From Piromyces finnis finn (taxonomy: Eukaryota; Fungi; Neocallimastigomycota): a DNA stretch of 64,000 bases. The position numbers and the translations under genes are program-made. The stretch is from positions 1 to 64,000 of the forward strand of contig MCFH01000025.1 of NCBI GenBank assembly GCA_002104945.1, read 5' to 3'. The notes below the pieces were generated by a model. The model made no database searches, was not told where the DNA came from, and saw nothing but the letters and a program-made list of their open reading frames with translations. This document shows positions 166 through 45,729 of the stretch, one piece after another; the first letter of the stretch is position 1; every line of letters starts with the position of its first letter.

Positions 166-1719
166 TTAAGCCTTACCAGCCATCTTGGCATCCATTTCTT
201 CAAGAGTAAGACCCTTACATTCAATAACGTAGAATTGAGAGTAAATCCAAGCGAGGAAACTGGCAGCAGCAAAAAGAATGAAAGTGTTAGTAGACCATTT
301 CTTCATGAGGAATGGACCAACAAAACCAATAATCCAATTGTTTAAGAAGTTAGAGACAGTACCAACAGCAGAACCCTTAACTCTGACACGAAGTGGGAAA
401 ACTTCAGCTTGGTAAACCCATGGAACTGGACCCCAAGTCCAAGCGAATGAGAATACGAATAAGAAAACGGAAGCAACAGCAGCGTATTGCCATCCCTTGA
501 TTGGTTGTTCAATGAACTTACCATTAGCATCCTTCTTACCACCAGTTAACTTAGAGCAAGCCCAAGTAGAAAGATGGAAGACCATCATCATAAGAGAACC
601 AATAACTAAAGAGTCTTACGACCTAATCTTTCAATACCCCACATACCTGGGAAGGTGGAAACAAAGTTAACGAGGTTGTTGACGTTTGGTAATACAACAG
701 TAGACATAACCTTGTTGAAACCCATTTCAGAGTAAATTTGACTTTGGTAGTACATAATAACGTTAATACCAGTCCATTGTTGGAAAAGTTGCATTAAGAA
801 AGTAATGAAAGTACGACGACGAATGACGGAACTGAAAAGTTTCACCGAATGAAGAGGAACCAGCAGCACGAGTAGCAGCAACATCTTCTTGAATAGCCTT
901 AAGTTCTTCTTGAACAACAGCATCAGAAGTAGAGGCGGCATTAAGCTTAGCAAGAATTTCAACAGCTTCTTCATCACGATCCTTAGAACATAACCATCTT
1001 GGGGACTTTGGAACGAAGCACATAAGAGTAGCAAGACCAAGACCTGGAACAACTTGTAATAAAAGAGCTAATCTCCATTCAAGGTTAGAGATTTCTTCAT
1101 CACCCTTTCTAGTGAAAGAAAGTAAACCTTCTGGCTTACGGTTAGTCTTGTACCAGATAAGAGCATTGATAAGAGAAGCAACAATAATACCAAAAGTAGT
1201 CATAAGTTGATAACAAGAAGAAAGAGTACTCTAAGGTTAGATGGAGCAACTTCTGAAATGTAGGTTGGGCAAAGTACACCATTACAAACCAATAGAAAGA
1301 CCAGTGATAAGACGACCAATGGCAATCATAACAGAGGAACGGATAGAAGAACCTTGAATAATAGCACCACAGGTGAAGATACAAGCACCAACCATAATGG
1401 TTCTTTGACGACCAAACTTTTCACCAAGGTAAGTAGCCATAAGAGCACCACAAAGAGCACCAAGAACGAAACTAGAAGTAATAACACCTTCAAGGAAAGC
1501 CTTATTACCTTTTTCTTCTAAATCACGGTACATAGCCTTTGAGGCATCATCAGTAGATTCACCAACTTCATCAATAGCTTTTCCCTTCCATTCGTGGAAT
1601 CTGAAGAAAATACGGAATGAGTCCATAACAAGAACAACATTCATAACACCAACTTCATAACCAAAAAGAAGACCACCAAGTGAGGCGGTAACAGCGACTA
1701 AAAATTGAAAGCTGTTCAT
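166..1719 (-). CDS. MFS sugar porter (hexose-transporter family), copy 1; intronless, ~517 aa once single-base indels are corrected
   Basis: Motifs GGLLFGYEVGVM, GRLITGLSIG, YISEVAPSNLRG, PKSPRWL, QQWTGINVIMYY, WGPVPWVYQAEVFP, KGLTLEEMD spread over ORFs 1282-1719, 763-1203, 606-1052 and 166-591. The frame breaks are 1-bp indels that are absent at the same positions in copy 2. Confidence 0.93.
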
Positions 1720-3838: not shown

Positions 3839-5392
3839 ATGAACAGCTTTCAATTTTTAGTCGCTGTTACCGCCTCACTTGGTGGTCTTCTTTTGGTTAT
3901 GAAGTTGGTGTTATGAATGTTGTTCTTGTTATGGACTCATTCCGTATTTTCTTCAGATTCCACGAATGGAAGGGAAAAGCTATTGATGAAGTTGGTGAAT
4001 CTACTGATGATGCCTCAAAGGCTATGTACCGTGATTTAGAAGAAAAAGGTAATAAGGCTTTCCTTGAAGGTGTTATTACTTCTAGTTTCGTTCTTGGTGC
4101 TCTTTGTGGTGCTCTTATGGCTACTTACCTTGGTGAAAAGTTTGGTCGTCAAAGAACCATTATGGTTTGGTGCTTGTATCTTCACCTGTGGTGCTATTAT
4201 TCAAGGTTCTTCTATCCGTTCCTCTGTTATGATTGCCATTGGTCGTCTTATCACTGGTCTTTCTATTGGTTGTAATGGTGTACTTTGCCCAACCTACATT
4301 TCAGAAGTTGCTCCATCTAACCTTAGAGGTACTCTTTCTTCTTGTTATCAACTTATGACTACTTTTGGTATTATTGTTGCTTCTCTTATCAATGCTCTTA
4401 TCTGGTACAAGACTAACCGTAAGCCAGAAGGTTTACTTTCTTTCACTAGAAAGGGTGATGAAGAAATCTCTAACCTTGAATGGAGATTAGCTCTTTTATT
4501 ACAAGTTGTTCCAGGTCTTTGGTCTTGCTACTCTTATGTGCTTCGTTCCAAAGTCCCCAAGATGGTTATGTTCTAAGGATCGTGATGAAGAAGCTGTTGA
4601 AATTCTTGCTAAGCTTAATGCCGCCTCTACTTCTGATGCTGTTGTTCAAGAAGAACTTAAGGCTATTCAAGAAGATGTTGCTGCTACTCGTGCTGCTGGT
4701 TCCTCTTCATTCGGTGAACTTTTCAGTTCCGTCATTCGTCGTCGTACTTTCATTACTTTCTTAATGCAACTTTTCCAACAATGGACTGGTATTAACGTTA
4801 TTATGTACTACCAAAGTCAAATTTACTCTGAAATGGGTTTCAACAAGGTTATGTCTACTGTTGTATTACCAAACGTCAACAACCTCGTTAACTTTGTTTC
4901 CACCTTCCAGGTATGTGGGGTATTGAAAGATTAGGTCGTAAGACTCTTTTAGTTATTGGTTCTCTTATGATGATGGTCTTCCATCTTTCTACTTGGGCTT
5001 GCTCTAAGTTAACTGGTGGTAAGAAGGATGCTAATGGTAAGTTCATTGAACAACCAATCAAGGGATGGCAATACGCTGCTGTTGCTTCCGTTTTCTTATT
5101 CGTATTCTCATTCGCTTGGACTTGGGGTCCAGTTCCATGGGTTTACCAAGCTGAAGTTTTCCCACTTCGTGTCAGAGTTAAGGGTTCTGCTGTTGGTACT
5201 GTCTCTAACTTCTTAAACAATTGGATTATTGGTTTTGTTGGTCCATTCCTCATGAAGAAATGGTCTACTAACACTTTCATTCTTTTTGCTGCTGCCAGTT
5301 TCCTCGCTTGGATTTACTCTCAATTCTACGTTATTGAATGTAAGGGTCTTACTCTTGAAGAAATGGATGCCAAGATGGCTGGTAAGGCTTAA
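3839..5392 (+). CDS. MFS sugar porter, copy 2 (inverted duplicate of 166-1719)
   Basis: ATG at 3839 (ATGAACAGCTTT), stop at 5392; same protein as copy 1, broken by different 1-bp homopolymer indels. Confidence 0.93.
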
Positions 5393-27107: not shown

Positions 27108-27528
27108 TGATACGGGTTAATTTTATGTAGAAAGAATTAAACTTTAATTAATATATATATTTTATTAATAATTTTATTTATAACGTTCCAATATTTCTAT
27201 TCTGTCTAAATACTAAAACGTTCTGTCGTTGTCAAATATTAAAATTCTAACTAAAACAAGAAGCCCTTTTTAATAATATTTATTCTAGTCTATTTATACT
27301 AATGAGGCTTACTTAATAATTAATTGTCCAATTATAAGGCTGGAACTATATGGATCATTCATTTACAATACTCTTTTACATTACATGATTTTACATTTGT
27401 CGTACATTTACATTATATTCTTATACATTGTAGAAATAATTAATATTATAATAAATCTATATAAATTTAATATTAGGAAAAATTACTAATATAATAATAT
27501 GTTCAAGTCACATATTATTTTTATATCA
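27108..27528 (-). repeat. 5' LTR of outer Gypsy
   Basis: Matches 13523-13941 apart from a few small differences; followed on the minus strand by the PBS. Confidence 0.93.
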
Positions 27529-28605: not shown

Positions 28606-29009
28606 TGATACGGGTTAATTTTATGTAGAAAGAATTAAACTTTAAATAATATATGTTTTATTAATAATTCTATTTATTACGTTCCAATATTTCTATTCTG
28701 TCTAAATACTAAAACGTTCTGTCTTTGTCAAATATTAAAATTCTAACTAAAACAAGAAGCCCTTTTTAATAATATTTATTCTAGTCTATTTATACTAATG
28801 AGATTTACTTAATAACTAATTGTCCAATTATAAGGCTGGAACTATATGGATCATTCATTTACATTATTCTTTTACATTTGTCGTACATTTGCATTACATT
28901 CTTATACATTGTAGAAATAATTAAAATTATAATAAAACTATATAAATTTAATATTAGGAAAAATTACTAATATAATAATATGTTCAATTCACATATTATT
29001 ATTATATCA
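28606..29009 (-). mobile_element. Solo LTR of the outer-Gypsy family
   Basis: Homologous to 13523-13941, more diverged; 4-bp TSD ATTA (28602-28605, 29010-29013). Confidence 0.92.
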
Positions 29010-29710: not shown

Positions 29711-31906
29711 TTAAAAGTAAATAAAACTAGGATTATTTTTTAAAGATTTATATATTGTACCATCTATACTTCTATTTAATAATAGATAAGGTTTATTAGG
29801 AAAACTATCTTGAAGTTTTATATTTGTAGCTTGACATGGATAATATATATTATCTTTCCATACACCAAATACCACAACTTCTTTTTCATTTATGTTTTTA
29901 AAGTAATGATATCCTGAAATCTCTTTAATTTCCTTATATAAAGTTGAATATGGAGGTAAGGTGTCATTAAATATATCTTCATTAATTATTGGAATTTCCG
30001 GCAATATATTAGAATATGTAGACTTCCATAAATAATACTTTTTATTAGAATCATCTGATATTTTTTTCTCTGCTATCAAAATAACTTTATCTTCTTCTGA
30101 GATAAATTGTGAAATATATGAATCTCTATTGTTTTCATCAATAATAATTATGTTATTTTTTTTGTACATTGATAATATTGCTTGTACAAATACATCGTTA
30201 ACGAAAAATAAATTAGTTTCTGGTTTTACTATATATTCATATCTATAATTTGGACGAAGGTATAACCTAGTAGTGTTCATCATAACAATTATGAATGGAT
30301 ATGAAGAATTAAAATTATAAACGAAATTATTTACTCCATATGGATATATCTTCATTTCATTATCTACGGAAAATGATAATATATTTATATTGGTATAACT
30401 ACTTTCCATTTTTAATATATTTAATTGTTTATTTAAAAACTTTTCTTTTAATATGTTTAGAAAGTGTTGCTGAGATGGGATATTTATATAAGTACTACAT
30501 TTAGAACATATTTTAAATTTCGAAAATATTTCTTCAATGTCAAAATAAATTCTATATAAATTTGGTAATTCATACCCATAAGAAATAAATAAGTTTGATG
30601 GTAATAAACCAATAGATTGTTCAACAATATTATACGATATATTAGTAAAAATAATCTTTTTTTTACTTTTAGCTTTTTTAATAGTTTTAACGCATTTAGG
30701 AATTCCAGGATTATCACCAGACCTTCTATTTTGATTTATAGTTATTGTGTACCCAGAGCCCTCTGGAGATTTATAATAATTATTATTCCATTGAACATAA
30801 GGAATATTGTGTTTGATACAATATTCTTTATCAGCAATAACAGGATAAACTTTATCGACATTCCTATAATATCTTGTATAAAATTTCCCAAATAATCTAT
30901 TATAATTTATTTTTATAGGTATTTTAAAGAATAAAGTTTTATTTTGAAAATAATTTATATGGAAATTAATATATAATAAATAAATATAGTTTAACAGAAT
31001 TTTTACTGATAAATACATATACCATTCTAGATTTTTAATATGAATTGTTTCATTATATTGTTTATGTTTATTATATAAAAATATATCTATTGAAGTATTA
31101 AATAAGTTTAAAGAATACACTAAACTTTCTTGTTTTTTTATTAAACCACTTTTTTCATTTGTATAAAGATAGGGATATAAATTATTTTCATATAACATTA
31201 AATCAAATAATTGAAAATCAATTGATATCGGGTATATTAATGTTATATCTGATGGAATAAATCTTATAAAAGTATTATCAATTGAACAATTTAAGAATGG
31301 TAATAATAAGTAAATAATGTTAGAATATGATTCTTTATCTGAAAAAGTAATTTTGGATTTTGTAATTTGTATTACATCATGACAACATTTAATAATAATA
31401 TAATTATCTACATTTTCAAGTTTTCTAAGTCTATCAAATCTTATTAATTCTTGGTTATATGAAAATGAATCAATAAAATATTTATTTACATATTGAAAAT
31501 GCTGTATACCTTGTATAAAACTTGCTATATATTGGCAATTATCAGGTAAATTTTGAGTAATTATTTTTTCATATGTTTCTTTAAAACTAATTGAGGGTAA
31601 ATTAATTGGAATATAGTATTTTGTTTTAGTTGTATCTTCTAAATAATATTTATATTTTATAGGTTCATTTTTTATTTTTTTTTCTAAATTATCATAAAGT
31701 GAAAATAATAATGATACTTTTTTTATATCTACATTAGAATTATCCTTATACTTTACTATATATTTTTCTTTGGATAATTCATTACAATCAATAATATTAA
31801 TTCCTTCAAAAAAAGAAAATACTTCATTATTAATTAATATTTCAAGTTGATATGGTAGGGCTTTGTATTTTTCTAATATTGTACGTATTAAATTTATTAT
31901 ATCCAT
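29711..31906 (-). CDS. NCLDV-type early transcription factor large subunit (vaccinia A7/VETF-L-like), 731 aa
   Basis: Intact intronless ORF. Ordered segments LFDLMLYENNLYPYLYTNEK, LFGKFYTRY..YPVI..NNYYKSP..GY..NQN..PGIPKCVK and GLLPSNL..LYRI follow the conserved core of A7-like proteins as I recall it (YSR..P.I..Y.CP..YPG..N..PCC, then G.LP..YR.G), with most Cys lost. It lies head-to-head with a D6-like gene. Confidence 0.62.
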   Translation of the reverse strand: MDIINLIRTILEKYKALPYQLEILINNEVFSFFEGINIIDCNELSKEKYIVKYKDNSNVDIKKVSLLFSLYDNLEKKIKNEPIKYKYYLEDTTKTKYYIPINLPSISFKETYEKIITQNLPDNCQYIASFIQGIQHFQYVNKYFIDSFSYNQELIRFDRLRKLENVDNYIIIKCCHDVIQITKSKITFSDKESYSNIIYLLLPFLNCSIDNTFIRFIPSDITLIYPISIDFQLFDLMLYENNLYPYLYTNEKSGLIKKQESLVYSLNLFNTSIDIFLYNKHKQYNETIHIKNLEWYMYLSVKILLNYIYLLYINFHINYFQNKTLFFKIPIKINYNRLFGKFYTRYYRNVDKVYPVIADKEYCIKHNIPYVQWNNNYYKSPEGSGYTITINQNRRSGDNPGIPKCVKTIKKAKSKKKIIFTNISYNIVEQSIGLLPSNLFISYGYELPNLYRIYFDIEEIFSKFKICSKCSTYINIPSQQHFLNILKEKFLNKQLNILKMESSYTNINILSFSVDNEMKIYPYGVNNFVYNFNSSYPFIIVMMNTTRLYLRPNYRYEYIVKPETNLFFVNDVFVQAILSMYKKNNIIIIDENNRDSYISQFISEEDKVILIAEKKISDDSNKKYYLWKSTYSNILPEIPIINEDIFNDTLPPYSTLYKEIKEISGYHYFKNINEKEVVVFGVWKDNIYYPCQATNIKLQDSFPNKPYLLLNRSIDGTIYKSLKNNPSFIYF

Positions 31907-35444: not shown

Positions 35445-38400
35445 ATGTCTTATCCCGATATTAATAAATTATATAACTATCGAGAATTTAAAGAAATATT
35501 TACTAATGAAAATTTATTGGAGGAAAAACTCCATATGAAAAGATATCAAATATTACCTTCTAGGTATATGTCGAGTGATAATGAAGCTGTTAAAAGATTT
35601 TTAATCTACCATCCACCGGGTTCAGGAAAGTCATATACTGCATTATGGATACTGCTAAACTTTATAAATTTTTATGAAAAACCAGCTATTATCCTTGTAA
35701 AGAATAAAGAATCGATAATAAATTTTAAAAGTCGTATTGAATCATGGTATTCATTTACATTTAACTTTTATAAACCTCCAGAAGGTATAACAAATTATCA
35801 ACAATTTATAAAAAAATATATTGAATTTTATACATATTTTTCATTTTTCAAATCTATAAAAAATATAGAGGATATTAAAATGCATGAAAATAGATTTATT
35901 ATTATTGATGAGATACATAATTTTCGAAATACTAAAGAAAATAAATTTATATATAAAAGAATTAATAAATTCTTAAGTTCTATTAAAAATGCAAGAGTAA
36001 TATTTATGTCAGCAACACCGATATTTGATAACTATAATGAAATATCAAGTTTAATAAAATTAATAGTACCAACTATTAATAATAATACTGATTTTACTCC
36101 CAAAAAAGTAGAAGAAATAATGAAAGGACACGTATCATATTATGGATTAAATCCGCCAGATACAATTGTTAATTATAATGGTAAGTGTATTCAAGGAATT
36201 AATAAATATAAAATATTTGAAATTCCTATGAAAGGATTCCAACTTCAATATTACCAAAATTTAACCAAAAATGTTAAGAATTTAAATAGTATGGAAATGG
36301 GAATTAATTTAACGAAAGCAGCTATTGGTGTTATTGATTTTAATAATTTTAAATTAAATATTCCCCATGATACTAATAATGAAAAAAAACGTTATATATT
36401 CAAAAATGGTCATATCATTTATAATGATATAGAAATTCAAAAAACTATAATAAAGCATTCAGAAAACCTCAGTGATTATTGTTGTAAATTTTACCATTGT
36501 CTAGATATTATTAATAAGGCTAATTCATCAGATGGTCTTGTTTTTATATATTGTAATTTAATAGAAGATATCGGTATATATTATTTTGCAGCACTACTTT
36601 GCTCTATGGGATATAATTATGTATATGATAATAAATCAGCAAAGCGATTTAGTAAAAAAAAATTTTTAGATAAAGAATTTGATTACCCAGAATTAAAAGA
36701 AATAAGAAGAGGTAATAAAAAAAATAAAAAATGGAATTTTACATTTATTACAGGTGATAAAAGATTATGTCCAAATGTTTTAGAGCGTTTAGATATGTTT
36801 AATAACTCTAATAATAAAGATGGCTCAGCAATCAAAGTACTCATAGGAAGTGATATATTGTCAGAAAGTGTTGATATTTTGAATGTACGTCAATTACATA
36901 TATTAACACCCCATTGGAATTATGAGAAAATAAATCAAATTATTGGACGTGTTCGTAGAGTAGGATCTCATATGGCGTTACCCCCGGAACAAAGAAATGT
37001 TAATATATATTTATATTCAGCATATGATCCAACAAAACAATATTCAGATTCTATTAACTATAGTATTGATTATTTTAAATATATAAAATGCGAAAATAAA
37101 TATAATCAATCATTACAATATTATAAGGCATTACAAAATGCTTCAATAGAATCATTAGTTATTAAGAATTTATCAAAAGATCACAATCTTAAAAGTTCTC
37201 AATATTCTCATTTATATATAGAAAAAAAATTACCAATATATCTTTCTTTGATGTGTAACTATCTAAAAACAGCTTTAGATTCATCCGATTATGTTAATAT
37301 TAACGATATAATAAAAGAAGTACCTGTATTAAATATATCCATTATTAAAGAAATAATAAAAATTATCAAAACAAATAACATTATAATAAATAATAGAATT
37401 TTAGATTATTCATGTGGATTAATGTATTTGAAAATGACATCAAATCTTCGTATTCACAATGATACTAAAAATCCCACTAATATAAATCCTTTAATTTACT
37501 TACTTGATCATAGTACAAATTCATCTAAGTCGCTAACGTCAGGTTTTAATAATAGTGGAGTTTTGAATAATGAAAATAAAAAAGATATAGAAATAGAAAA
37601 TAAAACTAATACTTTAGAACATTTACTAGAAAATAATTTAAACAAAGAATTTTATAATATTATATTAAATTATTCACACACAGAAATACTTGAAGTTATT
37701 AAACATAGTTTAAAATATAATATAAAGAATATTAAGTATTTCTTTAGTCCTTACTGGTTAAAATATGATGATTTATTTTATATATCATATATTTCAACTA
37801 TAAAAAGCAATTCTTATTCTAATAACAAGAATAAGTCTATTACTGACTTTAATAATATAATTTATTACAGTGATAAATCATTTAAAGAATGGTCAATCCT
37901 AAAAGATTCTGAATTGAATAAAATTTCTAAAATAGTTCAGAAGCATTATAAAGAAGAAAAATCAAAGAGAATTAATAATAATAAAAAATTTGCATTTATG
38001 TTATGCAATGATTTCATAATTCGATATGTTGATTCATGCAAAAATGTTTGTAGTAATGAAACATCTAACACTAAAGATTTGCGAAATTCTAATCGTGGAA
38101 GAAGTGTTTATAACTTTGGTAATAAAAAAGAATTAATAGAAAAGCTAATATGTTCGATGTGTTTTGATGATAATGAAAAAAAATTACATCAAATTGAAGG
38201 TTATAGAATTATTACACCAGAAAATATTTTAGAATTAAATAAAAATAACAATGAAGATACTACTAATTTAATGAATCATATAATAAAAATTATTACAAAT
38301 AATAATTTAGAAGAATATTGTTGTAAAAGACCACATCAAGCATTTTTAATGTATAAATTATTCTGTTTATTACCAAATTTACTCAAAATGACGAAAGATA

Positions 38401-38459
38401 ATATTATTGAAGAATGGAAAAAGTATTTATTTAAATATAATTTAATAGTTATTTTATAA
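35445..38459 (+). CDS. NCLDV-type SF2 helicase/NTPase of the D6/D11 family, most likely VETF small subunit (D6-like), 1004 aa
   Basis: Intact intronless ORF: LIYHPPGSGKS (Walker A), IIIDEIHN (DExH), FMSATP (motif III), ESVDILNVRQLHILTPHWN..QIIGRVRRVGSH..LPPEQRNVNIY (motifs V-VI in D6/D11 style), and a long C-terminal extension with NRGRSV..KKELI. Confidence 0.85.
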   Translation: MSYPDINKLYNYREFKEIFTNENLLEEKLHMKRYQILPSRYMSSDNEAVKRFLIYHPPGSGKSYTALWILLNFINFYEKPAIILVKNKESIINFKSRIESWYSFTFNFYKPPEGITNYQQFIKKYIEFYTYFSFFKSIKNIEDIKMHENRFIIIDEIHNFRNTKENKFIYKRINKFLSSIKNARVIFMSATPIFDNYNEISSLIKLIVPTINNNTDFTPKKVEEIMKGHVSYYGLNPPDTIVNYNGKCIQGINKYKIFEIPMKGFQLQYYQNLTKNVKNLNSMEMGINLTKAAIGVIDFNNFKLNIPHDTNNEKKRYIFKNGHIIYNDIEIQKTIIKHSENLSDYCCKFYHCLDIINKANSSDGLVFIYCNLIEDIGIYYFAALLCSMGYNYVYDNKSAKRFSKKKFLDKEFDYPELKEIRRGNKKNKKWNFTFITGDKRLCPNVLERLDMFNNSNNKDGSAIKVLIGSDILSESVDILNVRQLHILTPHWNYEKINQIIGRVRRVGSHMALPPEQRNVNIYLYSAYDPTKQYSDSINYSIDYFKYIKCENKYNQSLQYYKALQNASIESLVIKNLSKDHNLKSSQYSHLYIEKKLPIYLSLMCNYLKTALDSSDYVNINDIIKEVPVLNISIIKEIIKIIKTNNIIINNRILDYSCGLMYLKMTSNLRIHNDTKNPTNINPLIYLLDHSTNSSKSLTSGFNNSGVLNNENKKDIEIENKTNTLEHLLENNLNKEFYNIILNYSHTEILEVIKHSLKYNIKNIKYFFSPYWLKYDDLFYISYISTIKSNSYSNNKNKSITDFNNIIYYSDKSFKEWSILKDSELNKISKIVQKHYKEEKSKRINNNKKFAFMLCNDFIIRYVDSCKNVCSNETSNTKDLRNSNRGRSVYNFGNKKELIEKLICSMCFDDNEKKLHQIEGYRIITPENILELNKNNNEDTTNLMNHIIKIITNNNLEEYCCKRPHQAFLMYKLFCLLPNLLKMTKDNIIEEWKKYLFKYNLIVIL

Positions 38460-39574: not shown

Positions 39575-39735
39575 CATTATTCTTTTACATTACATTTTTA
39601 CATTAGTCATACATTTGTATTACATTCTTATATATTATAGAAATAATTAATATTATAATAAAAACTATAAACTTAATATTAGGAAAAATTTGCTAATATA
39701 ATAATAGGTTCAAGTCACATATTATTTTTATATCA
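39575..39735 (-). mobile_element. Truncated, diverged LTR remnant of the outer-Gypsy family
   Basis: tattaggaaaaatt..ctaatataataata.gttcaagtcacatattatttttatatca matches one end of LTR 13523-13941. Confidence 0.85.
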
Positions 39736-40329: not shown

Positions 40330-40977
40330 TTAGAGTTCTTGATTCTTTTTACTATCTTCTATCTTCTTTTGAATCTTTTCCAACTTTTTTCTTCTTCTAT
40401 CTTCACTATCTTTTCTTCTTTTTTCAATCTTCTTGGCGTAATCTTCTTTATCAGCTAACCAATTAGCTTTATTTTCTTCACTATCAACAAGTTCATAAAA
40501 TGAACCATTTTGCATTGCTTTTTGTAAAGCAAAACTATTACCAAAGAATTTACCATTAACAAAAATAAATGGGAAGGTTCTTTGGGCAGTCATTCTAAAT
40601 AAGGCATCTCTAATAGCAACTTTACGAGCTTCATTTCCAATATTGTTTAAATTTAGTAGAATAAAAATTATAAGATATGAATATTACATATTTAAAAAAT
40701 TATAAATTTTCTTATTTAATTTCAGAAAAATATATATTATCTCATTTATTATTATTATTTAAAAACTAAGTAAAAGTATACTTACGTTCGGCATCTACTT
40801 CCATAATACCATATGGAACTTTAGATTGAGAAATAGCTAAACGGGTAACTTTGCTTCTTCTGTTAACATTAATAATTATTTTAAATATTTAAATTAATAT
40901 TCATTAAATTAATTTTATAACACTATTTTATATTTAAGATCTCTTGTCCCTCCCCTTCTTCTTTCTTTCTTTCTTTC

Positions 40978-41008
<31 letters not shown>

Positions 41009-41578
41009 CACTTACTCATCATTTCCATCAATAAATAAAACTACTTGTTGTTCTAAACTAAATTTTTTAACTAATTGACCAACAGGTTCTTCCATATATT
41101 CTTTGACTTTTAATAAATCTGGTCTATTCTTGAGTCTTTCATAAGTTCTTTCTTCCTTAAGAATATCTTTAAGGAATGCTTTTTCTTCCAAAGTAAGAAC
41201 ATTATCATACATGTCTAAATTAATTTCATCCTCTAATTTTTTTTGAATATCTTTATAAGCAGAATGATTAGCTTCATTATATTCTGTTACAAAAACCTTT
41301 TCAGTGGTAGGTTCATTAATTGATTTATTTAATAAAATTTCAATTTTTTTTGAATATAATTCTGGTTGGAATTGCTTTAAATAGAGAATAAAACCACCAA
41401 CAATAACTGAGGCAGTAATAATGACAGTAATTAAAAATTTTATGCAATGACAACCACAATTACCACAACAACCTTTACAATTTGATTTTTCAATCTTTTT
41501 TTCAGTTGAGGTATTGTTTTCTTGAATTTCAGAAGGTTTAGTTTCCTTCTCTTTAGTATTTCTTTTGTTTACTGCCAT
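40330..41578 (-). CDS. Membrane-anchored glutaredoxin-like protein, 3 exons (41578-41016, 40859-40786, ~40630-40330)
   Basis: GTAAG donors at 41015 and 40785; spliced C-terminus IRDALFRMTAQRTFPFIFVNGKFFG resembles the Grx TVP/GG region; one hydrophobic helix (FLITVIITASVIVGGFILYL); no CxxC. The third-exon acceptor is ambiguous. Confidence 0.72.
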
Positions 41579-42472: not shown

Positions 42473-42919
42473 ATGTCTGATTTTAATTTTGATATTACAT
42501 ATCAAACAAGCGGAAATAATTATAGTTATGGAAAAAGTCCTTTCAGACAAATCCAATATTATTTAACTAACAGAATTATAGGAAAATATAGTAAATCAAT
42601 ATTTATTGATGGATTTATAAATTTTTTAACACAACATATTAATTATTCTGATATATCTTATGATGATGAAAATAATGAAAATCGATTTAGTAATTTGAAT
42701 GTTAAAATGTTATATTTTGTTTATATTATTAAAACATTTGAGTATCCAGATTTAAATGAAAATGACTTAATTGATGCTGAACATAAAACCGTAATTAAAC
42801 CTATATTTGAAGATATATTACAAATAAAGGATCCTGAAAATTATGAAGATTATTTTCTTGATATTATACGTTATCTCACTATATTTGATAAAATTATTAA
42901 TGATGATTTTATTATTTAG
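42473..42919 (+). CDS. Intronless 148-aa acidic protein of unknown function, possibly viral
   Basis: Clean ORF in otherwise nearly pure A/T DNA, with coding-like composition; ends ..FLDIIRYLTIF.. Confidence 0.6.
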   Translation: MSDFNFDITYQTSGNNYSYGKSPFRQIQYYLTNRIIGKYSKSIFIDGFINFLTQHINYSDISYDDENNENRFSNLNVKMLYFVYIIKTFEYPDLNENDLIDAEHKTVIKPIFEDILQIKDPENYEDYFLDIIRYLTIFDKIINDDFII

Positions 42920-43563: not shown

Positions 43564-45729
43564 TTAAGGTTCACAAGACATTGAGTATGCATACTCTAAG
43601 AAAATATCGTCTATATCTAACATATTGGAAGCAAATGGATAGTAATGAATTTCTTTGTTATTAAGATCATGAACAATGCCATTTTCATCAGTTGTTAAAT
43701 CTTCCATACATTTAACCAACTCTCTTTGTAAGTATCCAATAGAAGATGTATTTAAAGAAGTTGATATAATTCCAGCACGTCCAGATTTTGAGTGAATAAA
43801 TAATTCTTTTGATGATAGACCTTCTGAATAAGAACCTTTTATATATAAAGATGGTAGAACAGCTTGAAATCCAACTGCTACTAAGATTTGTGATATATTT
43901 TCTTTACTACCTTTGGAACCACTATTTACAATATTAGTTAAATTATTGTCAATTGAGCCAATTATTTCTGATAAAGAAAAATGTCTATTAACATCTTCAT
44001 TTGATAAATTTGTTTGACTTAAAATATTATTTTGATCAAAAATTAGTGAATCAATACTTGATAAAGGAACATCCGTTGCATTATTAGATATATTATCTAT
44101 TATTGGTTTAAATGAAGTTTTCATATTTTCATTAGCTATACAATCAGCAATGGAAATAGTAATTGTGTGAAATAAATTATACTCATGGACCATTTGTTGA
44201 ACATTCCACATAAATTTCAAGTAAAAATCATTACCATAATTACTTATTGCATTAAGTAGAAGTGTTTGATTATTACCATTAATAACCCCTAACGAAATAC
44301 CACGATCTATAATTAACTTATTATTATGTTTTAAAGTTAATGTTTTAGGAAGTAATAAAGATAATAAGTGTGCATATGGAATATTTGTTGTATTCATTCT
44401 TTCATTATAAAATTCACAAAATTTTATCCATTCTTTAGTTGAAATATTAAGTTTTTTACATATTCTTTCAATGATAAAGGAATCAACAATGTGCGTATCC
44501 CTTGTCATATTATATAATCCTGTTAATGTATCTTGTATAAATTTAATCATTATAGAAGCGTCTTTAAATGATCGAATATTATTTGATATATTTAATTTGG
44601 TTGCCAATTCTTTTTTTGCTTCTATTCCCGGAAGCCAAAATATATTCATCTCATCACCATCAAAATCTGCTTGAAAAACATTTGCTATTAATGGGTTGAT
44701 TTGGATTGTACGACAATTACTTGGAAAAGAACGAATTGCTAATATTGACGTAGATTGAAGTGTAGGTTGTCTATTGATAATGACATAATCATTTGGTTTA
44801 TAGCCAAAAGAAACTAATCTATCAGTAAACTCTTTTGGAATTAATATTCTATCAATAGGGGTATCTATATTTGGCACAATTACACTACGTAAACAAAAGT
44901 TTTGTCTTTTTGATAAGCACATGCTTCTAAATATTCCCTTTTTTCCGGATAATAATTGTTTAATATAATTTTTATTTGTAGTTTCAATTTTACCTGTTGA
45001 ACATTTCATTCCTAATACTTTTTTATATAAATTATACACTCTTAGTGAATAACTATTATTAATATTTTCATCATTTTGATATTTTTGATTTAAATCAAAA
45101 AATTTTAGATATAATGAAGTAATGTTATTATGCAATATTACATTACTAGAATCTACTATAGATGGTCTCATATTTATTGGTAAAATTGGAATATTTTTAA
45201 TAAATACTCTAAGTAATTTAGATTTAAGTCCAGGATTGTTACTAAAATCTGAATTATAAATTTCTTTATACATATCTTCTACTGATATTTGTTTGTTTCC
45301 AAATGAAAAAGCATATTCTGATTCTTGAGGTTTATTAGACTTTTTGTTTTTATATTTATTTACTTTTTTTTCGTTATCGTTTTTGTTTTCAGAATTTGAT
45401 TTAAATAAAGAAAATGTTGTGGATACTATTTTTTTTTTACAGCAAATTGACTTTACATTATTTGAACTATCATATTTTTTACAAATGGGACAAATGTGCG
45501 TTATTTCTTTACACAAAGTATTCACGAATAAAGGATGAACAATTCTTTGAAAAAGGGGTATTCTTCCTAAATGGCCTGGACATTCAATAATTTTCTTACA
45601 TTGTCTGCATGGTAACTGAGGATTAAGTGTATATGAAGTTGTGTTGTCAATTAATTCGTCTTTATTATTTATTAAAATCGCTTTTTTTTCAAGTTTTTCA
45701 TCATCATATAATTCAAATTTTAAATGCAT
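43564..45729 (-). CDS. Streamlined multisubunit RNA polymerase largest subunit (RPB1/beta-prime N-terminal part), virus-like, 721 aa
   Basis: Zn clamp CRQC..ECPGH and CPIC; LSGKKGIFR; RSVIVP; NRQPTL; catalytic QADFDGDEMN; SGSKGS..NISQI; bridge helix GRAGIISTSLNTSSIGYLQRELVKCMEDL; no introns, no heptad CTD. Confidence 0.93.
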   Translation of the reverse strand: MHLKFELYDDEKLEKKAILINNKDELIDNTTSYTLNPQLPCRQCKKIIECPGHLGRIPLFQRIVHPLFVNTLCKEITHICPICKKYDSSNNVKSICCKKKIVSTTFSLFKSNSENKNDNEKKVNKYKNKKSNKPQESEYAFSFGNKQISVEDMYKEIYNSDFSNNPGLKSKLLRVFIKNIPILPINMRPSIVDSSNVILHNNITSLYLKFFDLNQKYQNDENINNSYSLRVYNLYKKVLGMKCSTGKIETTNKNYIKQLLSGKKGIFRSMCLSKRQNFCLRSVIVPNIDTPIDRILIPKEFTDRLVSFGYKPNDYVIINRQPTLQSTSILAIRSFPSNCRTIQINPLIANVFQADFDGDEMNIFWLPGIEAKKELATKLNISNNIRSFKDASIMIKFIQDTLTGLYNMTRDTHIVDSFIIERICKKLNISTKEWIKFCEFYNERMNTTNIPYAHLLSLLLPKTLTLKHNNKLIIDRGISLGVINGNNQTLLLNAISNYGNDFYLKFMWNVQQMVHEYNLFHTITISIADCIANENMKTSFKPIIDNISNNATDVPLSSIDSLIFDQNNILSQTNLSNEDVNRHFSLSEIIGSIDNNLTNIVNSGSKGSKENISQILVAVGFQAVLPSLYIKGSYSEGLSSKELFIHSKSGRAGIISTSLNTSSIGYLQRELVKCMEDLTTDENGIVHDLNNKEIHYYPFASNMLDIDDIFLEYAYSMSCEP

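What the first reader, a model, noticed from the sequence alone, without database searches (positions are those of the whole stretch)
43564..45729. Minimal RPB1 that stops at the archaeal A'/A'' split point, with a QADFDGD active site
Seen: all N-terminal catalytic motifs are present, but the protein ends ~40 aa after the bridge helix (GYLQRELVKCMEDL..GIVH), so the trigger loop and later regions are missing. Only ~20 aa separate RSVIVP from the NRQPTL region, the loop before the bridge helix is short (GFQAVLPSLYIKGSY), and the invariant NADFDGD reads QADFDGD. Known: archaeal RpoA' ends at about this position with RpoA'' separate, and the pGKL2 plasmid RNAP also places the beta-prime C-terminal part in a separate ORF. 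Inference: a naturally split, highly reduced RNAP whose partner genes lie elsewhere; the clean stop suggests design rather than decay.
Basis: partly seen in the sequence, partly recalled or inferred. Interest (0 to 1): 0.8.

Follow-up and report, generated by a model that had tools for sequence, protein, structure and literature searches.

The report
Naturally split fungal-virus RNA polymerase half
This intact gene encodes the front half of the largest RNA polymerase subunit of a giant-virus-like element already described in gut fungi and moss, where the back half is a separate gene; the gut-fungus version has also lost two normally conserved parts and swapped one active-site residue, and is likely still a working enzyme design.

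Summary
Observation confirmed; the main idea is already published. ORF 43564-45729(-) encodes a 721-aa RPB1 N-half ending about 11 residues short of the Thermococcus A' end. All 23 of 25 close homologues (gut fungi, metagenomes) that reach the C-terminus stop at the same place; all 25 have Q for N in NADFDGD. Four named homologues lie on contigs whose lengths match 'fundsalphavirus' contigs of Gong 2020, where RP1n and RP1c are separate genes. Maumus 2014 described the same fission in moss and made the archaeal comparison. A related viral contig carries a standalone 373-aa RP1c with the trigger loop, 17 kb from RP1n. Trees place the gene among compact viral RP1n; an archaeal origin is rejected (AU test). 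Not found in the papers I searched: the N-to-Q swap and a 24-aa F-loop deletion; a 57-aa dock deletion is shared with moss elements. This scan noted the F-loop loss before, on another piece of this genome. No RP1c, RPB2, PolB or D5 lies in the 64-kb window, and no whole genome was held, so whether this copy has partners is open.

The parts
43564..45729 (-). RP1n: N-terminal half of the largest RNAP subunit (clamp Zn sites, active site, pore, funnel, bridge helix), 721 aa
44653..44673 (-). Catalytic loop QADFDGD (Q353 = yeast N479; D355/D357/D359 = D481/483/485)
44764..44775 (-). NRQP motif; R320 = yeast R446 / E. coli beta' R425 (E. coli equivalence recalled), the main 2'-OH selector, retained
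44794..44820 (-). Junction of a ~57-aa deletion (yeast 373-438; the dock domain, boundary recalled)
43843..43860 (-). Junction of the 24-aa F-loop deletion (yeast 770-799)
43705..43812 (-). Bridge helix (yeast ~810-845, boundary recalled), followed by a ~46-aa tail and the stop
35445..38459 (+). Intact D6/D11-like SF2 helicase, 1004 aa; best solved relatives vaccinia NPH-I (E 2e-20) and VETF-S (E 1e-7); a listed fundsalphavirus gene type
29711..31906 (-). Intact 731-aa orphan; its 16 homologues are from gut fungi or metagenomes, and 5 of them share the longest-contig length of an RP1n homologue (18858, 42490, 168386, 127315, 309320). Likely an element gene, possibly VETF-large-like (not significant)
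42473..42919 (+). 148-aa orphan ORF convergent with RP1n; membership of the element unknown

Best explanation
The gene is an intact N-terminal half (RP1n) of the largest RNA polymerase subunit, likely from a fundsalphavirus-type element inserted in an anaerobic gut-fungus chromosome, and its product would pair with a separately encoded C-terminal half (RP1c) and an RPB2 to make a cytoplasmic, virus-type RNA polymerase. Shown: RP1n carries the clamp zinc sites, the three catalytic aspartates, the ribose-sensing arginine and the bridge helix; the family stops at one place; a related viral contig and published maps have RP1c as its own gene. Inferred: RP1c supplies the trigger loop, jaw and clamp C-terminus by non-covalent assembly, as archaeal A'' does; the cut falls in the foot region, which the lineage has dropped. 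The dock was lost early in this lineage, which suggests virus-specific initiation with the helicase and perhaps the 731-aa protein rather than TFIIB. N-to-Q likely keeps an amide near the NTP ribose at little cost, and loss of the F-loop likely changes how trigger-loop closure is stabilised. This copy is a scattered remnant: three intact element genes over 16 kb, with an intron-bearing host glutaredoxin between them and no RP1c, RPB2, PolB or D5 in the window. It could work only with partners from other copies.
For: Family: 25 homologues at 50-72% identity; the 9 named to a species or strain are all Neocallimastigomycota. 23 of 25 reach the terminal motif and end within 17 residues of the window's stop; 2 break off before the bridge helix; none continues. 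The length window searched (396-1262 aa) would admit a ~1090-aa fused form, and the unfiltered library search lists no longer hit at 50% identity or more among its best 150. P0007, P0018, P0025 and P0015 have contig lengths 127315, 168386, 246453 and 68043, equal to four fundsalphavirus contigs in Gong 2020 Fig. S2; RP1n is drawn on all four and a separate RP1c on the first three. Maumus 2014: no moss element has an unsplit RP1, and both halves have omega<1. IMG/VR contig behind L081/L161: dock-less RP1n (780 aa) and a standalone RP1c (373 aa, trigger-loop motif kept) next to PolB, about 17 kb apart; 4 more standalone RP1c of 331-409 aa. Tree: gut-fungal clade (SH-aLRT 100) inside a compact viral clade (99), archaea apart; AU test rejects gut+archaea, dlnL 97.4. 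E. coli N458S lowers binding selectivity only 4-fold, R425K 17-fold (PMC7862312).
Against: No gut-fungal RP1c or RPB2 sequence was retrieved here: the one RP1c search returned 14 proteins, none named as gut-fungal. Their existence rests on figure text from Gong 2020, whose column layout can be off. The window lacks all the partners tested, and the element is not compact here. The window copy has 8 private changes at 211 otherwise invariant columns (range 0-15, median 3 among 21 rows) and I664 where most orthologues have T, so mild drift is possible. The tree used the quick method, the gut branch is long (1.46), several rows fail the composition test, and no named moss or Mortierella sequence was in it.
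Confidence: 0.82

Rival explanations
1. The host has domesticated the element's transcription genes: RP1n, the helicase and the 731-aa gene are kept and expressed as chromosomal genes, with RP1c and RPB2 kept at other loci, and they serve the fungus or maintain a resident element.
For: Three long ORFs are intact while replication genes (PolB, D5) are absent from the window. Spacing is host-like and AT-rich, with an intron-bearing glutaredoxin in between. Four runs guessed to be RNA (3 studies) hold 74-97% of the gene's words, and one 2535-nt contig covers the ORF with short flanks only.
Against: The runs are only guessed to be RNA, and contigs cannot show transcription; the contig end upstream of the ATG coincides with a skipped repeat. 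Homologues are multicopy with dead copies: 3 of 25 have lost a catalytic Asp, as repeated insertions would give. Gong 2020 found no shared flanking host genes.
Confidence: 0.12
2. A truncated pseudogene of a full-length RPB1 that lost its last ~370-600 codons.
For: No C-terminal half or RPB2 in 64 kb; slightly raised private substitutions.
Against: 23 of 25 homologues, across several genera at 50-72% identity, end at the same conserved terminal motif; 14 more distant compact relatives end near there too; no RP1c relic downstream of the stop.
Confidence: 0.02
3. An RNAP of a pGKL2-type cytoplasmic linear plasmid inserted in the chromosome.
For: pGKL2 also divides beta' between ORF6 and ORF7 and uses a related helicase (PMC6211774).
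Against: pGKL ORF6 fuses beta and beta' parts in one chain (P0110 shows such a fused architecture). The window protein is a free-standing RPB1 N-half with its own clamp and no Rpb2 domain. The mapped elements carry D5 and UDG.
Confidence: 0.03
4. A horizontally acquired archaeal rpoA' gene.
For: Best PDB sequence hits are archaeal A'; the end point is similar.
Against: 166 bits against a cut-off of 819 for the A' family; AU test p 1e-82 against grouping with 6 archaeal-type A'; no adjacent A''; viral helicase neighbour.
Confidence: 0.01

Closest known systems
Fundsalphavirus endogenous elements of Neocallimastigomycota and other early-diverging fungi (Gong, Zhang and Han 2020, PMC7017919)
   Same: Separate RP1n and RP1c genes, D6/D11 helicase, multicopy insertions near retrotransposons; four named homologues match its contigs by species and length.
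   Different: The main text does not discuss the N-to-Q swap, the dock loss or the F-loop loss (parts 1-2 of 3 read). This copy lacks PolB, D5, RPB2 and RP1c in the window, so a PolB-baited screen would miss it.
Physcomitrium patens NCLDV-like regions (Maumus et al. 2014, PMC4083422)
   Same: RP1 fission into RP1n/RP1c, called analogous to archaea, both halves under purifying selection; no capsid or packaging ATPase found. Its RP1n alignment shows the same dock-region gap.
   Different: Moss copies keep NADFDGD. Their F-loop region was cut from the passages shown to me.
Archaeal Rpo1N/Rpo1C (A'/A'')
   Same: Split after the bridge helix, end within about 11 residues.
   Different: A' keeps the dock, F-loop and Asn; A'' is usually the next gene (15 such loci); phylogenetically separate.
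Yeast virus-like element pGKL2 RNAP ORF6/ORF7 (PMC6211774)
   Same: Cytoplasmic, reduced RNAP with beta' divided between a15 and a16; helicase partner.
   Different: ORF6 is a beta/beta' fusion; here RP1n stands alone.

Membership tests
Fundsalphavirus (Gong 2020) | RP1n homologous to those on fundsalphavirus contigs | tested here: met
   P0007/P0018/P0025/P0015 at 57-65% identity; species and contig lengths equal four listed contigs. The match is by length, not accession.
Fundsalphavirus (Gong 2020) | RP1 encoded as separate RP1n and RP1c | tested here: inconclusive
   RP1n ends at the family stop; RP1c shown only in a distant relative and in the paper's map; none in this window; genome not held.
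Fundsalphavirus (Gong 2020) | Linked D6/D11-like SNF2 helicase | tested here: met
   35445-38459, 5.1 kb from RP1n; NPH-I hit E 2e-20.
Fundsalphavirus (Gong 2020) | PolB in the fundsalphavirus clade (the paper's defining marker), with D5, RPB2, UDG, methyltransferase | tested here: inconclusive
   PolB, D5, RPB2 and capping-enzyme profiles from distant relatives found nothing in 2393 window segments or six frames (best iE 0.28). UDG was not searched by profile. The rest of the genome could not be searched.
Multisubunit two-barrel RNAP largest subunit (RPB1/beta') | Three catalytic Asp in DFDGD, NRQP Arg, clamp Zn ligands, bridge helix | tested here: met
   fold matches RPB1 chains (VIA Z 24.6, rmsd 16, 500 aligned; model pLDDT 71.5, pTM 0.54)
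Multisubunit two-barrel RNAP largest subunit (RPB1/beta') | Polymerase activity with RP1c and RPB2 | not testable with these tools
   Needs reconstitution.
Archaeal RpoA' | Curated family score and monophyly with A' | tested here: not met
   166 vs 819 bits; AU test rejects.
pGKL2-type linear plasmid RNAP | beta and beta' regions fused in one ORF | tested here: not met
   No Rpb2 domain in the 721-aa ORF.
Mycodnaviridae | Clade membership by marker phylogeny | not tested
   A term search of PMC13533422 gave no mention of Neocallimastigomycota or RNA polymerase; no sequences were compared.

The most novel reading that the evidence does not exclude
Gut fungi carry a still-active, capsid-less cytoplasmic replicon of about 20-40 kb, derived from giant viruses, whose three-chain RNA polymerase core has shed the dock, foot and F-loop and rewired the 'universal' NADFDGD loop to QADFDGD. 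This chromosomal copy is a transcribed deposit of its transcription module, and the enzyme is a natural minimal RNAP showing that the F-loop and Asn are dispensable for catalysis.
Probability: 0.25. Interest if true: 0.65.

Novelty: new member of a known kind. Interest (0 to 1): 0.3.

Why it matters
The split itself is published, so the headline is not new. What may be useful is the enzyme. A recent paper argues that rim-helix/F-loop closure is a conserved step of every nucleotide addition cycle (PMC13342826), and NADFDGD is called universally conserved (PMC13198411). This clade, conserved across gut-fungal genera, has lost 24 aa of the F-loop and fixed N-to-Q. It is a ready-made natural test of both claims and a candidate minimal RNAP. 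It also bears on the question Maumus 2014 left open: whether these capsid-less gene sets are fragments of large viruses or small replicons in their own right.

Tried and rejected
Whole genome: not held. Close relatives in IMG/VR: none by peptide patterns or by a degenerate QADFDGDEMN pattern; none in GTDB genomes. RP1c, RPB2, PolB, D5, capping enzyme, VETF-L-like, SSB, FEN and PrimPol: nothing significant in the window by tblastn (RPB2 not included there) or HMM. 731-aa ORF as VETF large subunit: hhalign lands on the DUF5757 motif of L081 but at probability 0.1, E 0.64; Pfam blank, PDB blank, Atlas hits 0.81-0.82, lead only; left as a lead. 148-aa ORF: no usable hit. No clear terminal repeats bounding an element among the repeats shown for 26-51 kb (20 of 54 direct families, 25 of 384 inverted pairs). 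GC3 does not separate element genes (0.09-0.14) from neighbouring host genes (0.14-0.16). First fold with close homologues only was poor (pLDDT 47.5). No RNA holder is listed on record; reads were laid on RP1n only, so the helicase and the 731-aa gene have no read evidence. Paper searches: 'QADFDGD' 0 papers; 'fundsalphavirus' 1 paper; searches gave no further account of these elements apart from Gong 2020 and Maumus 2014. Subscription papers are not covered. The egovirus preprint has no fungal link (passages).

Full report
Observation. The window is very AT-rich and holds sugar-transporter genes, retrotransposon pieces, an Rce1-like gene and an ATM-like kinase. ORF 43564-45729(-) is open for 721 codons. 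It matches Pfam Rpb1_1 to Rpb1_4 and only the first 53 of 267 positions of Rpb1_5. Aligned to yeast Rpb1, Q353 stands at N479, the three aspartates and R446 are kept, about 57 residues are missing between yeast 373 and 438, and 24 between 770 and 799. Naming these the dock and F-loop, and the foot for the region where the gene is cut, rests on recalled domain boundaries. The chain ends about 11 residues short of the end of T. kodakarensis A'. Contigs from 2 of 4 runs laid cross the stop with no differing letter.

The stop is a family trait. One search gave 25 homologues at 50-72% identity, then a drop to 28%. The 9 that are named to a species or strain are Piromyces, Neocallimastix, Anaeromyces or Orpinomyces; the rest are metagenomic. 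In the alignment, 23 of 25 reach a conserved terminal motif and end no more than 17 residues past the window's stop; P0015 and P0020 break off before the bridge helix; none continues. All 25 have Q; 21 have QADFDGD exactly, 22 keep all three Asp, and 3 look dead. Among 349 other sequences with the motif, 342 have N, 2 have Q (both this family) and 5 have G, A or H, so N is not strictly invariant. The R-to-N spacing across the dock is 38 in the 22 homologues where it could be measured, against a median of 95 in 314 others. The F-loop spacing is 29-30 in 18 measurable homologues, against 44-57 in 14 compact relatives and a median of 54 in 158 others; four other compact proteins (P0147, P0164, P0194, P0227) have 32, so the loss is not unique to gut fungi.

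It is a known element. Gong 2020 (PMC7017919; main text parts 1-2 of 3, and supplement parts 1-4, 6 and 7 of 7 as extracted text) describes fundsalphaviruses in five gut-fungal genomes. Their maps list RP1n and RP1c as separate genes, e.g. UDG-RP1n-methyltransferase-RPB2-D5-PolB-RP1c-helicase. Four of my named homologues have the species and contig length of contigs in that figure (127315, 168386, 246453, 68043). The paper places the moss elements within the same group. Maumus 2014 (PMC4083422; passages, Discussion and supplement passages) states that RP1 fissioned in the ancestor of those elements, compares it with archaea, reports omega<1 for both halves and finds no capsid or packaging ATPase. 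Its RP1n alignment shows the same dock gap with NADFDGD kept. No gut fungus appears in the parts of Gong's capsid and ATPase trees that I read (parts 6-7); part 5, where the ATPase tree begins, was searched only for Neocallimastix.

Independent check on a relative. The unfiltered search found a broad set of 650-745-aa RP1n-like proteins. One sits on a 40-kb IMG/VR contig, of which I read positions 6795-40098. It encodes a dock-less RP1n and, 17 kb away beside PolB, a 373-aa RP1c that starts about 10 residues before the conserved stretch leading into the trigger loop. It also encodes D5, a capping enzyme, an SSB-like and a DUF5757 protein. I recognised no RPB2 or capsid in that part; not every ORF was scanned. 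Four more standalone RP1c were found, none named as gut-fungal. Among 47 complete IMG/VR RPB1 ORFs with a measurable bridge-helix motif, 4 others also end soon after it, so cutting at this point recurs.

Origin. FastTree on 74 rows and IQ-TREE LG+C20 on 36 of them (bacteria and redundant rows left out, rooted on archaea) put the gut-fungal clade inside a supported clade of compact RP1n (99), next to other split viral RPB1s (98). Holding it with 6 archaeal-type A' costs 97.4 log units (AU p 1e-82). The long branch and compositional bias make its exact sister unsure. Top fold hits in the viral library are pithovirus-like and iridovirus RPB1s, in line with Gong's placement.

This copy. Neighbours are an intact NPH-I/VETF-S-like helicase and a 731-aa orphan whose homologues share contig lengths with RP1n homologues. 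A glutaredoxin with spliceosomal donor sites lies between helicase and RP1n. No RP1c, RPB2, PolB, D5 or capping enzyme is detectable in the window. The copy has 8 private changes at 211 invariant columns, high but within the family range. Four runs guessed to be RNA hold the gene, and one contig covers little more than the ORF: a weak hint of expression only. An unreviewed note of this scan reports a broken RP1n copy elsewhere in this genome and the F-loop loss; I confirmed the deletion myself but could not see that copy.

Mechanism. RP1n would provide the Mg-binding loop, clamp and bridge helix; RP1c the trigger loop and jaw; RPB2 the second barrel (inferred from RNAP structure and from archaeal and pGKL2 precedents; PMC6211774 passages). 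N-to-Q is probably mild: in E. coli N458S lowers binding selectivity 4-fold, whereas R425, kept here, is the main determinant (PMC7862312 passages). F-loop loss is the more surprising change, given its proposed role in stabilising the closed trigger loop (PMC13342826 passages). Dock loss suggests TFIIB-independent, virus-type initiation (inference).

Verdict. The N-to-Q swap was not found in print by the searches named, and it and the F-loop loss give the family modest value as a natural RNAP mutant. Interest 0.3.

Noticed in passing
window 31982, 34394, 34583, 34917, 35081 (+): A degenerate ~45-bp AT-rich motif recurs five times, in one orientation, only between the divergent 731-aa and helicase genes; its 16-base core has 4 matches vs 0.69 expected. 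Possibly an element origin or promoter repeat, or a host repeat.
   Followed up: partly
window 40330-41578 (-): Glutaredoxin-like gene with an N-terminal hydrophobic segment and GTAAGT intron donors at 41015 and 40785, lying between the viral helicase and RP1n.
   Followed up: partly
window 166-1719 (-) and 3913-5392 (+): Two near-identical, frameshifted sugar-transporter-like copies in inverted orientation around a very AT-rich spacer; may be an assembly or long-read artefact.
   Followed up: no
window 27108-27528, 28606-29009, 39596-39735: Dispersed 54-230-bp repeats (94-96% identical between the first two sites) near the retrotransposon block; the second copy ends 700 bp from the 731-aa gene.
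   Followed up: no
P0127: A compact RP1n with a ~250-aa C-terminal extension that by eye resembles the primase-like ORF at L161 6464-7336, rather than RP1c.
   Followed up: no
P0147, P0164, P0194, P0227: Other compact viral RP1n proteins also lack the F-loop but keep N where the motif is seen; P0147, P0194 and P0227 are not sister to the gut-fungal clade, so the F-loop was probably lost more than once.
   Followed up: partly
L029, L049, L054: Full-length ~1500-aa RPB1-type ORFs with GADFDGD or HADFDGD: other natural replacements of the 'invariant' Asn.
   Followed up: no
L161/L162 (IMG/VR contig 3300036715_003133): The split-RNAP relative also encodes a 1026-aa MutS-like protein, dUTPase-like, globin-like and FEN-like ORFs (named by eye).
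   Followed up: no
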